The position numbers were made by a program. Of a stretch of DNA of 31,691 nucleotides, positions 21,901 to 24,900 are shown piece after piece. The stretch comes from a virus (Duplodnaviria; Heunggongvirae; Uroviricota; Caudoviricetes), in IMG/VR virus record IMGVR_UViG_2778261559_000026. One strand, given 5' to 3'. Position 1 is the stretch's first letter. Each line of letters opens with the position of its first letter.

Positions 21901-24900
21901 CAGACGATCCCAAACAGGTGATTCATATCGTTCACAGTTATGATCGTAAAAGCTGCGGTGATCCAGAATGTAAACCTTATCTTTCGCTACACCTAAGATG
22001 GTAGACTCTGCGCGGTCTAATTGCTGGTCAATTCCTGAGCACAAGAAAATCACGTCATCAGGGATATTCTCGATAGAAACATCTGTTTTGAGTTGTTCCA
22101 GTTCATTTGCTTCTACTGCCGTGTCCTGATCGTCGTATACCTTGCCTAATACGGTGTTATAAAATGATTGTAAATCAAAGGATTGCCACGCATGACTAAA
22201 ATCAACCACACAAGCGCGGATCGTGCTGAAAGGTGAATACAGACGACTGATCCAGAATCCGGCTACTTCACTTTCACGGGTTGCTCTCCACTCGCCTTGT
22301 GCTACTGCCCTGATTCGTTCTCCTTCTGTCCATGCGTTCTTACAGTGGGGGCAAATATAACGAGCGGTATCAGGATCGGGTAAGTTCTTACCATCGATGT
22401 TACGCCATTCAAATTGAACGTTTTCCCACTCGATCACCTGGTGTTCCCCGCAATGAGGACACGGAACAAAAAACATACGCATATCGCTTGATAACCATTG
22501 CTGGTTAATGCTTCCCAGCTTACTGGTCGGGGTACTGGATACGACTAATCGACCTTCATCGCCAAAGGTAGTTAAACGGTTAGCAGCCAGTGCCACCGGA
22601 TCACCTTCTTCTGAGGCTGTGGCAGCATCGATTTCGTCAAGCAATCCAACCTTTGCGGTCTTACCGCGTAGGGTTGATGGACTGGTAAGCGATACCATGT
22701 ACAGGAAGTGATTCGTTTTTAACTGGAGTTGGTTATTGTTGTTAACCGCATTACGATCATTCTTGTCTGTAACCACGTCTTTCAATGCATCACATGCTTC
22801 GATAGACGGTCGGATCTTACCCGCGAGATATTGCGACATTTCTTTAGCGGTTGATTGTCCGATAATCATATTGCATGGATCGTTAGCCATCTGGTTAAAC
22901 AGGATACCGTTTAGGATGGTAGTTTTTCCGATCTGCGCACTGGTCATCAGAACATACTTTTTCTTATTCTCAAGGAAAGGAGCATCAATCATGCCTTTCT
23001 GGAATGACAGCAATTTAACTTTATCCCCCGCTTGAGGACCATCTACCAGCACCATATTCGCTTCGCACCATTCAGAAGGAAGGAGTTTAGGCGGTGGCGT
23101 AATATATTTTGCGGCATTTTTAAGAATCTTTTTTAATTTGGCCTTGTTCGAAATCAGTTTCATGTAATTACCCTCATTACGAAATATGAAGGTATTTATT
23201 AAATTGTTGATATTTTGATAAATATGGTATTAAGATTTAAGGGGGTTGTATGCTAATTAATCAGCAAGAAAGAGATGAATTAGAATTAGCCTTGTCTTGT
23301 ACCGATCATGAATATCGTTTGCCAGTCAAGCATAAGCATTTAAAGACTGACTACACAACATCCGGCTTTAGTCGCGAGGAAGCGAAAGAGATTTTAATAG
23401 AGTTTTACCGCGATAATGGTTATAGAGACGTTCGCAACTTCTTTAGCAAGCATCGCACATCACATACAGAGTTTCGGAGAGTCCGAGATTGGTTTGATTT
23501 TGACATTAAGCGGTTTTACAGAATCGACGATGGTCCGATCTATCGGTTGCAATGGAAGCCACTAAGGGAAGTGTTTAAGCATGAAAGGCTAAATCACGCT
23601 GTTACACGCTATCGTAACGAGGCTTTCAAGAAAGGGTATGGTGATACAAGGGAATTGTTCGTTGAACTCGCTAACGTGCGATATAGCCATTATTACAACG
23701 ATCCTAAAGGGTTCTTTGAAGTGCTTCGCAAGGTGGATATTAGTCGAGGTACATACTATTCACGGTTGAGGCAGTACGGGATTAAGGCAGAGTTCTTTAT
23801 GTCGGTTGACGATGGAGAACTTTTTCCTATAAAATGTAAGTCCTCTAAATAAAGGTGAACATTCACTTTAATTTGGAGAAAATGACTATGACTACTAAAG
23901 CTACTCGCGGTCGTCCTTGCCGTTTTGATCGTGAACAACTGGCAGCGATTGTAAAAGCGTACTATCAAGCGCCGAAAGGTAAAGCCGAAAAAGAACAAGT
24001 ATTGAGTGAACACGGTATTTCAATCGCTCAATTCTACAAATCACTCCATAAAGTTGATTTGAAATTCTTTGTTCAGGTTGACGGTGAAATGGTAGAAGCA
24101 ACAGGAATTTGATTCTCTAGGCCAATCCTTCGGGGTTGGCTTTTTTATATCCGCTCAAAACTGAGCACATCTCTAAGTCATTGATTCTTCCGATGAGTCC
24201 AGATTTGGACTGATCTATAGATGCCCTCAAAACTGAGGGGATGTGCTTAAAGTTCAGCGTATCTATCTAAGTGGTTGATTCTTTCGAGAAATTCAAACTT
24301 GAATCAATCGGCGCAAAACTGCGCTCATCTCTAACCTATTGATTCTTCCGATAAATCCAAATCTGGATGCATCAGATACAAAAAAGCCCAGCGCAATTAT
24401 GCGCCGGGCGATTAATCAGATCCCAAAATCAACAAGGGAAATTACGTTACCTGATTCACGAATCTGTTTAGCAGCTTTGTTTTGAATCAGAATAGTGTTA
24501 TTTGGCTGCGGTAGTTTAAGAGTTGCTTTCTGTTCTTCTTCCAAAACGCCCAATTCAACCAGCACCGGAAGAACATCAACAGTAAACTCAAGTTGGTAGT
24601 GAGCATTCATGCGGCAGAAAGACAGAGAAGAGTCATTAGCAACATACCCACACGGCTTGTTATTTTCATCATAGACGCGCTCAATGTATCCAGCAGTACG
24701 TAAGGCCGTCAGTGCTTCTTTAACCTTCGTAGCGCCCTTTTTAGCGCCTAACAGACGTGTCATAGAATGGCTATCTACGGATTTGCGAATGTGTAGCTCA
24801 ATCAGTTTTTTATTTTTGCGTTTTTCATCTAATGCCAGTTCGATCCAATCGGTTTCTTCAAAGTCTGCATACGGGTTAACAGGAGTATTATTGGCGGTTT

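What the first reader, a model, noticed from the sequence alone, without database searches (positions are those of the whole stretch)
23882..24112. Duplicated small basic protein family (76 aa and 59 aa) in two separate cassettes
The products of 23882-24112 and 27454-27633 align over about 50 residues (RF.RE.L..I.K.Y.....G.K...VL.E.GI....F.K.L.K.D.K). Each pairs with a larger unknown protein (200 aa upstream, 318 aa downstream) and each cassette ends at a terminator. Paralogous small DNA-binding-like proteins are typical of regulators, antitoxins or specificity subunits.
Basis: seen in the sequence. Interest (0 to 1): 0.5.

Follow-up and report, generated by a model that had tools for sequence, protein, structure and literature searches.

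The report
Phage-specific small helix-turn-helix protein family
The two small proteins are real paralogues of a previously unnamed helix-turn-helix DNA-binding family that occurs four times in an undescribed E. coli prophage; they look like the phage's own regulators, not toxin-antitoxin parts.

Summary
The 76-aa (probably 74-aa) and 59-aa products align at 42% identity over 52 residues (BLASTP E=8e-12). Profiles of each subfamily find the other at E~1e-9. The 200-aa "partner" is itself two more copies of the same domain, so the prophage carries four copies.

AlphaFold predicts three helices plus a β-hairpin. Distant profile hits are tandem arrays of resolvase/transposase-type HTH domains. No Pfam, PHROG, NCBIfam or PADLOC family matches at threshold.

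The window is a ~30 kb low-GC prophage inserted in hicB. Both cassettes lie in a 6.2 kb control region between the large and small terminase genes, with synteny conserved in Escherichia, Salmonella and Providencia relatives. Cassette 1 (200 aa + 74 aa) diverges from the terminase/late operon. Cassette 2 is an iteron array, an AT-rich stretch, the 59-aa HTH gene and the 318-aa protein.

Across about 39 contigs the iteron type tracks the N-domain of the large protein without exception. The three 59-aa variants assort freely. A similar module sits in a T4-like phage contig.

Best reading: DNA-binding regulators. Toxin-antitoxin and specificity-subunit readings are not supported. This is a new family of an ordinary kind.

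The parts
23250..23852 (+). 200-aa basic protein (pI 9.3) made of two tandem copies of the family domain. The copies span residues ~37-103 (nt 23358-23558) and ~128-197 (nt 23631-23840). It is the first gene of cassette 1.
   Evidence: ORF. BLASTP against the 76-aa protein gives E=5e-5 (repeat 2) and 2e-3 (repeat 1). An HMM built without these sequences scores the whole protein at E=1.3e-6 and marks two domains. pI.
23888..24112 (+). 74-aa single-domain HTH protein.
   Evidence: homologues are 74-75 aa. AF2 model has pLDDT 82 with helices 17-29, 34-43, 48-57 and strands 62-66, 69-73.
23164..23249 (.). 86-bp divergent intergenic region between the large-terminase (late) operon and the 200-aa/74-aa operon. 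It holds AATAAATA 30-37 nt upstream of TerL, and TTGATA-18-TAAGAT for the + strand operon.
   Evidence: Nearly invariant between E. coli and Salmonella relatives and partly conserved in Providencia. Promoter scan. Motif positions.
24119..24142 (+). Intrinsic terminator that closes cassette 1.
   Evidence: 10-bp stem followed by a T-run.
26712..26853 (+). Iteron array: 5-7 direct copies of TTTCAGGGGCAAAAAT at 21-22 bp spacing (type A).
   Evidence: The same array is present in relatives. The iteron type matches the N-domain type of the downstream large protein in every one of about 39 distinct contigs.
26870..27060 (.). AT-rich stretch (23-30% GC) directly after the iterons. It contains two copies of the palindromic CAAAWATTTTGATAG, 149 bp apart.
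   Evidence: The palindromes are present only in part of the relatives.
27373..27420 (+). Promoter-like 27-nt element AAAAACATTTTATAAATAGAATTGTTC, followed at once by a hairpin and T-run (27400-27420) just upstream of the 59-aa gene.
   Evidence: The 27-mer recurs in inverted orientation at 25318-25344, upstream of the Rha-like gene; 2 matches against 0.00 expected. The TATAAATA + hairpin arrangement is kept in all variants of the upstream region.
27454..27633 (+). 59-aa single-domain HTH protein (pI 9.6), first gene of cassette 2. Its N-terminal arm MA(K/R)PV(R/K)FTRE is invariant across variants.
27674..27705 (.). 14-bp-stem hairpin between the 59-aa and 318-aa genes. Its T-run lies on the minus strand only.
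27748..28704 (+). 318-aa modular acidic protein. It has a variable N-domain (~185 aa, type A), a coiled coil with a 63-bp tandem duplication, an acidic linker and a conserved C-terminal motif LHDxxYxTN[FY]S. It is the inferred iteron-binding protein.
   Evidence: Type A and type B N-domains are unrelated in sequence, but the tail motif is shared. Covariation with iteron type. The AF2 model is unusable (pLDDT 38).

Best explanation
The 74/76-aa and 59-aa proteins, plus both halves of the 200-aa protein, belong to one lineage-specific family of stand-alone tri-helical helix-turn-helix DNA-binding domains. Each domain has a basic N-terminal arm ((R/K)-P-x-(R/K)-F, RGRP in the 74-aa protein), three helices and a C-terminal β-hairpin. 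The family is a very divergent relative of the resolvase/transposase 'homeodomain-like' HTH class. It is encoded by an undescribed temperate phage lineage of Enterobacterales.

I propose they are the phage's own sequence-specific DNA-binding regulators, acting at two control points.

(a) The 200-aa (double-domain) and 74-aa proteins form a two-gene operon transcribed divergently from the large-terminase/head/tail operon, across an 86-bp conserved intergenic region. They would bind there and set expression of the late/packaging operon, and of themselves, either as activator or as prophage-state repressor.

(b) The 59-aa protein is the promoter-proximal gene of a self-contained module: iteron array, AT-rich region, small HTH, large iteron-matched protein. 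It would act as the small regulatory or accessory DNA-binding component that controls expression of the downstream iteron-binding, initiator-like protein. This is the position Cro holds relative to O/P in lambda, or CopG/CopR relative to Rep in plasmids.

Shown: the paralogy, the four copies, the predicted HTH fold, the conserved gene positions, the iteron/large-protein covariation, and the free reassortment of the small protein. Inferred: DNA binding, the binding targets, the regulatory role, and origin/initiator function of cassette 2.
For: Paralogy and copy number.

Fold:
- AF2 gives pLDDT 82 with three helices and a β-hairpin.
- Outside the family, the exhaustive profile search over 1.84 billion proteins includes tandem-repeat proteins (E 5e-9 to 1e-5). 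The six of these scanned are arrays of Pfam HTH_7, HTH_23, HTH_28 and HTH_Tnp_1.
- Sub-threshold Pfam hits of family members are HTH_7, HTH_Tnp_1 and WH_Rok.
- The proteins are basic, pI 9.2-9.6.

Position:
- The order TerL(-) | 200 aa(+) 74 aa(+) ... iterons | 59 aa(+) large protein(+) ... TerS(-) is kept in E. coli, Salmonella and Providencia prophages.
- The helix 2-turn-helix 3 stretch EHGISIAQFYK of the 74-aa subfamily is unchanged in the E. coli, Salmonella and Providencia versions examined, and so is much of the TerL-proximal intergenic sequence.
- Apart from a Rha-like protein and the Nu1-like small terminase, no other predicted DNA-binding regulator was found in the prophage.

Cassette 2 as a module:
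- Iterons at 21-22 bp spacing with an adjacent AT-rich stretch.
- Iteron type matches the large-protein N-domain type in all of about 39 contigs, although the shuffled 59-aa gene lies between them.
- The small terminase does not track iteron type.
- A 168-kb T4-like contig carries a third iteron type, a 64-aa family member and a 204-aa homologue of the type-B N-domain (E=4e-10), in the same order.
Against: - No binding site could be identified. Upstream-region types do not co-vary with the three 59-aa variants. The palindromes near the iterons are absent from several relatives. The triple repeat downstream of the 74-aa gene is absent from a relative that encodes an identical protein.
- Providencia relatives lack the 200-aa protein, so it is dispensable.
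- A lysogeny-type regulator makes little sense in a T4-like phage. This suggests the 59-aa type may be tied to the iteron module's own activity rather than to general gene regulation.
- The large protein has no similarity to any known initiator and no usable structure model, so 'origin + initiator' is itself an inference.
Confidence: 0.55

Rival explanations
1. Origin-accessory protein. The 59-aa HTH is not mainly a transcription regulator. It is an architectural or loading co-factor that works with the large iteron-binding protein at the iteron/AT-rich region, bending or opening DNA or recruiting host factors. The 74-aa and 200-aa paralogues would do a related DNA-handling job next to the packaging genes.
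For: The trio of iterons, small HTH and large protein travels together into a T4-like phage, where lysogeny control is irrelevant. The N-terminal arm of the 59-aa subfamily is invariant while the iterons and large-protein N-domains change. That fits binding to a generic AT-rich or minor-groove target, or to a host factor. The AT-rich stretch sits next to the iterons.
Against: There is no co-variation with any origin element. The gene's promoter-proximal position and small size suit a regulator equally well. There is no evidence that the region is an origin at all.
Confidence: 0.2
2. Packaging-site recognition. The 200-aa/74-aa HTH proteins, encoded next to the large terminase, are cos/pac-binding accessory or alternative small-terminase subunits.
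For: They sit immediately next to TerL in all relatives. Small terminases use N-terminal HTH domains (established knowledge). Some of the tandem-HTH proteins hit by the family profile also score for Sf6_terminase and Terminase_5 HTH models.
Against: A separate Nu1-like small terminase is present (29415-29969; phrog_57 E=1.7e-10), with a conserved ~270-nt upstream block that is the more likely cos region. The HTH genes are transcribed away from TerL. They have no PHROG packaging hit. The paralogous 59-aa gene is unrelated to packaging by position.
Confidence: 0.08
3. Recombination directionality factors or excisionases for the prophage's large serine recombinase (2537-3949).
For: Known RDFs of serine integrases include small basic proteins of ~60-75 aa with no conserved family (established knowledge). 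No other excisionase candidate was recognised in the prophage.
Against: The genes lie about 20 kb from the recombinase. There are four domain copies. They match no Xis, AlpA or HTH_17 family. A homologue sits in a T4-like lytic phage beside iterons. Their positions next to TerL and the iterons are conserved.
Confidence: 0.06
4. Toxin-antitoxin or specificity-subunit pairs. Each small protein would neutralise or direct its larger neighbour.
For: A small basic HTH gene lies next to a larger gene of unknown function, twice. HTH antitoxins (HigA) appear among the insignificant Foldseek matches.
Against: The 200-aa neighbour is the same HTH domain twice. The 59-aa variants v1, v2 and v3 combine freely with both unrelated N-domain types of the large protein. 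The large proteins have no toxin, defence or enzyme family hit. The 59-aa and 318-aa genes are separated by 114 bp and a hairpin.
Confidence: 0.03

Closest known systems
Resolvase/invertase C-terminal HTH (Pfam HTH_7, e.g. Hin) and IS3/IS630-type transposase N-terminal HTH (HTH_Tnp_1, HTH_23, HTH_28)
   Same: Three-helix HTH of about 45-50 residues preceded by a basic arm. RGRP in the 74-aa protein resembles the GRPR arm of Hin (from memory). The family profile hits tandem arrays of exactly these Pfam domains. Sub-threshold HTH_7 and HTH_Tnp_1 hits occur in family members.
   Different: These are stand-alone proteins with no catalytic domain. They carry an extra C-terminal β-hairpin. All scores are below the Pfam gathering thresholds (12.9 bits against 24.1 for HTH_Tnp_1). 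No PDB sequence match was found.
Small DNA-binding proteins that head replication operons: lambda Cro (pR-cro-cII-O-P), plasmid CopG/RepB and CopR/RepR
   Same: A protein of ~60 aa is encoded as the first gene downstream of a control region, just upstream of the protein matched to the origin repeats.
   Different: There is no sequence or fold membership (Cro and CopG have other folds). No operator was identified. The variants do not co-vary with their upstream DNA. A homologous trio also occurs in a lytic T4-like phage.
Iteron-type replication origins with a cognate initiator (lambda ori/O, P1 RepA, pSC101/R6K-type replicons)
   Same: There are 5-9 direct repeats at two-helical-turn spacing with an adjacent AT-rich stretch. 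The neighbouring gene's variable N-domain switches together with the repeat sequence. This recalls lambdoid O proteins, where the N-domain matches the iterons and the C-terminal part is conserved.
   Different: The large protein matches no Rep/O family, PDB entry, plasmid or GenBank phage. Iterons lie upstream of the gene rather than inside it. No helicase, primase or loader was recognised in the prophage. Replication function is untested.
T4 oriE iterons with repEA/repEB
   Same: Evenly spaced direct repeats inside a T4-type genome, near small early genes, with an unresolved role (review PMC3016281). The T4-like contig L047 carries an iteron + HTH + binder module near genes 2/4/53/5.
   Different: The module's proteins have no detectable similarity to anything in deposited T4-like genomes. 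The position, between a gp3-like gene and gp2, is not stated to be that of oriE.
Phage late-gene activators encoded beside packaging genes (RinA/ArpU/Ltr families, Mu Mor/C, P2 Ogr; T4 gp33/gp55 with TATAAATA late promoters)
   Same: Small proteins sit next to the terminase genes. Every operon start in this prophage region, TerL and TerS included, is preceded by WATAAATA with no conserved -35. That 8-mer equals the T4 late-promoter consensus (established knowledge).
   Different: The genes are transcribed divergently rather than upstream in the same direction. There is no family match. The Pfam Trans_coact (gp33) hit is weak (E=0.029), and profile comparison with T4 gp33 gives 4% probability.

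Membership tests
Pfam HTH_7 / HTH_Tnp_1 (resolvase/transposase HTH) | Score at or above the family's curated gathering threshold | tested here: not met
   HTH_Tnp_1 scores 12.9 bits against a cut-off of 24.1. The best HTH_7 E-value among 19 family members is 0.088.
Pfam HTH_7 / HTH_Tnp_1 (resolvase/transposase HTH) | Three-helix HTH fold with the recognition helix third | tested here: met
Type II toxin-antitoxin module | An adjacent partner with a recognisable toxin fold or family | tested here: not met
   The 200-aa neighbour is twice the same HTH domain. The 318-aa neighbour has no hit in Pfam, PHROG, NCBIfam or PADLOC beyond coiled-coil noise.
Type II toxin-antitoxin module | Cognate pairing: the small and large genes are inherited and vary together | tested here: not met
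   Variants v1, v2 and v3 of the 59-aa protein each occur with both unrelated N-domain types of the large protein.
Type II toxin-antitoxin module | Toxicity of one partner, neutralised by the other | not testable with these tools
   Needs expression experiments.
Iteron-type origin plus initiator (applies to cassette 2) | Array of at least four direct repeats at helical-repeat spacing, next to an AT-rich region | tested here: met
   5-7 copies at 21-22 bp spacing. A stretch of 23-30% GC follows directly. The same layout occurs with other repeat sequences in relatives.
Iteron-type origin plus initiator (applies to cassette 2) | Adjacent protein whose specificity domain matches the repeats | tested here: met
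   This rests on covariation only: no discordant case in about 39 distinct contigs, while the intervening 59-aa gene is shuffled.
Iteron-type origin plus initiator (applies to cassette 2) | Homology of the protein to a known initiator family | tested here: not met
   No hit in Pfam, NCBIfam, PHROG, PDB, plasmids or phages.
Iteron-type origin plus initiator (applies to cassette 2) | Autonomous or initiator-dependent replication | not testable with these tools
   Needs a replication assay.
Small terminase subunit (Nu1-type) | Match to a small-terminase family and co-orientation with the large terminase | tested here: not met
   The HTH family has no PHROG or Pfam packaging hit. Its genes are transcribed away from TerL. 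A separate Nu1-like gene exists.
Excisionase / recombination directionality factor | Match to Xis, AlpA or HTH_17 families, or adjacency to the recombinase | tested here: not met
   No such family hit. The recombinase gene lies about 20 kb away.
T4 gp33-type late-transcription co-activator (Pfam Trans_coact) | Significant sequence or profile similarity to gp33 | tested here: not met
   Pfam gives 14.6 bits against a cut-off of 25. hhalign against T4 gp33 gives probability 4.4% and 0.6%.

The most novel reading that the evidence does not exclude
The four-copy HTH family is the dedicated control set of an undescribed temperate phage lineage. That lineage lacks any recognisable repressor, Cro, antiterminator, sigma factor or replication gene. 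All its operons carry -35-less WATAAATA promoters. Its 59-aa member is an obligatory third component of a portable 'iteron array + small HTH + swappable-N-domain binder' module, which moves between temperate siphovirus-like prophages and T4-like myoviruses. This would be a new type of phage origin/initiator, or of iteron-based control system.
Probability: 0.25. Interest if true: 0.55.

Novelty: new member of a known kind. Interest (0 to 1): 0.35.

Why it matters
On its own the finding adds an unnamed family to the very large class of small phage HTH proteins, which is ordinary.

It gains some value from context. It marks the control region of a prophage lineage present in about 1% of complete E. 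coli genomes, and also in Salmonella and Providencia. That lineage has no close relative among deposited phages and no recognisable regulatory or replication genes.

Following the finding also exposed a clean natural experiment. Iteron sequence and the N-domain of the neighbouring 300-340-aa protein switch together, while the small HTH gene between them is shuffled. This points to a new iteron-binding protein family and gives directly testable hypotheses for origin function and for the role of the small HTH. A related module inside a T4-like genome touches the old, unresolved question of what iterons do in T4-type phages.

Tried and rejected
- **Named family for the small proteins.** Pfam, PHROGs, NCBIfam, PADLOC and a PDB sequence search gave nothing at threshold.
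- **Foldseek of the AF2 model against PDB.** No match with E<1.
- **Structure of the 318-aa protein.** The AF2 model is unusable (pLDDT 38) because all available homologues are more than 90% identical.
- **GenBank phages and PLSDB plasmids.** No DNA or protein match for the region, the small proteins, or either type of large protein.
- **GTDB species-representative genomes.** No relative of the 74-aa protein. The metagenome scan returned only the same prophage family.
- **Iterons as small-terminase (cosB) sites.** Rejected. The same TerS type occurs with both iteron types.
- **Operators co-varying with the 59-aa variants.** Rejected. One upstream-region type is found with v1, v2 and v3.
- **TTTTGATA-containing palindromes or direct repeats as family binding sites.** Enrichment is marginal (7 against 3 expected). 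The sites are absent from several relatives. The similarity between the 200-aa promoter and the TerS/LprI upstream region is not conserved.
- **Triple ~80-bp repeat after the 74-aa gene as its target.** Rejected as essential. Its copy number is 0-3 among relatives, including one with an identical protein.
- **Similarity of the 59-aa protein to T4 gp33.** Not supported.
- **Rfam.** No RNA family in the window or in the two long non-coding stretches.
- **Literature on a hicB-inserted prophage.** The search found nothing relevant.
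Full report
**What the window is**

Bases 1-822 encode the GntR-type host gene ydcR, and 31341-31691 the N-terminal part of hicB. Between them lies a ~30 kb element of 40-43% GC. It carries:
- a large serine recombinase (2537-3949);
- tail, head, portal and lambda-gpA-type large terminase genes on the minus strand (TerL 21256-23163);
- a Nu1-like small terminase (29415-29969; phrog_57 E=1.7e-10).

An intact ~35 kb relative splits hicB in E. coli PD23. 58 of 5,426 complete E. coli genomes carry similar DNA. No deposited phage is close: megablast finds nothing, and the best TerL match is 43% identical.

The finding lies in a 6.2 kb bidirectional region between TerL and TerS. 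This region holds all the non-structural genes except those at the integrase end.

**Check of the observation**

Both ORFs exist as described. They align at 42% identity over 52 residues with E=8e-12. Profiles built from one subfamily alone retrieve the other from all 492 six-frame ORFs of the window at E=5.5e-9 and 1.7e-9, so the paralogy is not chance.

Three corrections apply.
- The first gene probably starts at 23888, giving 74 aa.
- The upstream 200-aa protein is two further copies of the same domain. The prophage therefore has four copies, three of them in one two-gene operon.
- Only the first cassette has a correctly oriented terminator.

**What the domain is**

No curated family reaches threshold in Pfam, PHROGs, NCBIfam or PADLOC.

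Word-indexed searches of 5.8 billion proteins found only 26 and 6 cluster representatives. All named ones come from Escherichia, Shigella, Salmonella or Providencia. An exhaustive profile search of 1.84 billion representatives found 22 hits. Part of these belong to the family itself. Among the rest are long proteins matched in several stretches, and the six of them scanned are tandem arrays of HTH_7, HTH_23, HTH_28 and HTH_Tnp_1 domains.

The proteins are basic. They begin with a conserved arm, RGRPCRF or A(K/R)PV(R/K)F. From memory, this resembles the minor-groove GRPR arm of Hin.

I conclude that the family is a divergent stand-alone member of the homeodomain-like HTH class. DNA binding is inferred, not shown.

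**Anatomy and conservation**

The gene order in the region is:

TerL(-) | 200 aa(+) 74 aa(+) terminator | Rha-like(-) 51 aa(-) acidic 155 aa(-) | ~1.37 kb non-coding | 59 aa(+) 318 aa(+) | two membrane proteins(-) TerS(-)

This order recurs in E. coli, Salmonella and Providencia prophages. Providencia lacks the 200-aa gene.

The 86-bp TerL/200-aa intergenic region is almost invariant between E. coli and Salmonella. The helix-turn-helix core EHGISIAQFYK of the 74-aa subfamily is unchanged in the versions examined.

**Cassette 2 is an iteron module**

The long non-coding region holds 5-7 direct repeats TTTCAGGGGCAAAAAT at 21-22 bp spacing, followed by a 23-30% GC stretch.

Relatives carry one of two repeat types, this one (A) or TAGTGTAGGTTT (B). 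I collected loci by scanning IMG/VR for each repeat pattern and from the other searches. The results were:
- Repeat type matches the N-domain type of the downstream large protein in every case. Type A goes with 'MLFSANFF...' in ~19 distinct contigs, and type B with 'MKxxKRITFN...' in 20, with no exceptions.
- The two N-domains are unrelated in sequence. The proteins share a coiled coil, an acidic linker and the tail motif LHDxxYxTN[FY]S.
- The 59-aa gene lies between repeats and large gene, yet its three variants each occur with both types.
- The same TerS type occurs with both repeat types.

The large protein is therefore the best candidate for the repeat-binding protein, and the layout is that of an iteron origin with its initiator. 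The 59-aa protein is a separate, exchangeable component.

A 168-kb T4-like metagenomic contig carries the same trio between a gp3-like gene and gp2. It has about nine copies of AGCGATTAC, a 64-aa family member, and a 204-aa homologue of the type-B N-domain (E=4e-10). This shows the trio is a portable unit. Nothing similar exists in deposited phages or plasmids.

**Against the toxin-antitoxin and specificity-subunit readings**

- One 'partner' is the same domain duplicated.
- The other partner tracks DNA repeats rather than the small protein.
- No toxin or defence family matches.
- The 59-aa and 318-aa genes are 114 bp apart with a hairpin between them.

**Most likely mechanism**

I take the four domains to be the phage's own DNA-binding regulators.

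The 200-aa and 74-aa proteins are encoded back-to-back with the late/packaging operon. Apart from the Rha-like protein, they are the only candidates to control it. Whether they activate it or keep it silent in the lysogen cannot be told from sequence.

The 59-aa protein heads the operon of the iteron-matched protein. That is the position of Cro or Cop-type regulators.

I could not find operators.
- Upstream-region types do not follow protein variants.
- Candidate palindromes and repeats are not conserved.

The main rival is that the 59-aa protein is an origin accessory factor rather than a transcription regulator. The T4-like occurrence favours that somewhat.

**Promoter-like motif**

Nearly every operon start in this region is preceded at 30-85 nt by WATAAATA in the sense orientation. 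This holds in four phages from three genera and includes TerL and TerS. There is no conserved -35. In the window there are 11 occurrences against 5.8 expected, none in the interior of a gene.

The 8-mer equals the T4 late-promoter consensus (established knowledge). This prompted a test of the weak Pfam hit of the 59-aa protein to the T4 gp33 co-activator. Profile comparison gave 4% probability, so that lead is not supported.

**Verdict**

The family is new but of a very familiar kind. The TA idea is not supported. The more interesting by-product is the iteron/large-protein covariation and the portable three-part module.

Noticed in passing
window 26712-26853 and 27748-28704; loci L001, L003-L014, L017-L018, L021-L025, L028-L032, L034-L036, L038-L042, L044, L046, L049-L050, L052-L057: The iteron sequence (CAGGGGCAA type or AGTGTAGG type) matches the N-domain type of the downstream 300-340-aa coiled-coil protein in every contig. 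The two N-domains are unrelated, yet the proteins share the C-terminal motif LHDxxYxTN[FY]S. This is a candidate new iteron-binding (initiator-like) protein family.
   Followed up: yes
L047 4894-6625 (ENA ERZ27275837 k141_13924, 168 kb) and L048: A T4-like phage contig carries about nine AGCGATTAC repeats, a 64-aa member of the HTH family, a 204-aa homologue of the type-B N-domain and an 80-aa coiled-coil protein. They sit between a gp3-like gene and gp2. The module is absent from deposited T4-like genomes.
   Followed up: partly
window 2033, 6859, 11885, 23193, 25327, 26124, 27180, 27383, 27740, 29400, 30000: WATAAATA occurs 11 times against 5.8 expected, never in the interior of a gene. It is almost always 30-85 nt upstream of a gene start in the sense orientation, with no conserved -35. 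The orthologous positions are kept in Salmonella and Providencia relatives. The motif equals the T4 late-promoter consensus.
   Followed up: partly
window 25318-25344 (-) and 27373-27399 (+): The 27-nt element AAAAACWTYTTATAAATARAATTGTTC occurs upstream of both the Rha-like gene and the 59-aa gene in opposite orientations (0 expected by chance). In each case a hairpin follows at once.
   Followed up: partly
window 27180-27420: A second TATAAATA lies about 270 nt upstream of the 59-aa gene, with the hairpin and T-run at 27400-27420. This could define a ~200-nt non-coding transcript. The spacing is kept in L008 and L012. There is no Rfam match.
   Followed up: no
window 24146-24376: Three ~60-90 bp repeat units, each with short hairpins and a TCCAGATTTGGA-type palindrome, lie between the convergent terminators of the 74-aa and Rha-like genes. 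They are found only in this prophage family, with 0-3 units.
   Followed up: partly
window 23163-29415: The large and small terminase genes are separated by 6.2 kb of oppositely oriented regulatory and replication-like genes. A conserved ~270-nt block upstream of TerS (29970-30240, with a G+C-rich core GCGCGGTCGCTACGCGAC) is a candidate cos region.
   Followed up: partly
window 3785-3949 compared with L002 20110-27981: The prophage in the window looks degraded. The recombinase ORF is 470 aa instead of 559 aa and overlaps a shortened tail-tip gene (599 aa against 1,217 aa). The lysis genes present in strain PD23 are missing.
   Followed up: partly
window 6050-6823 (-): A NUMOD3-type homing-endonuclease gene lies among the tail genes. 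No such gene is annotated at the corresponding place in strain PD23.
   Followed up: no
window 28343-28468 and 25222-25257: A 63-bp tandem duplication lies in the coiled-coil part of the 318-aa gene, whose homologues range from 298 to 361 aa. An exact 18-bp tandem duplication lies near the 5' end of the Rha-like gene.
   Followed up: no
window 26170-26189 and 26558-26577: An exact 20-nt direct repeat CAGTCGGGCAAAGCCCTCCT brackets a ~390-bp non-coding stretch rich in short G+C hairpins. The stretch is conserved in relatives and its role is unknown.
   Followed up: no
window 24416-25315 compared with L007 4997-5878, L008 8342-9169: The Rha-like protein keeps its C-terminal half but has a different N-terminal winged-helix domain in the window than in relatives, which have Pfam Phage_pRha there. 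This is another swapped specificity domain in the same region.
   Followed up: no
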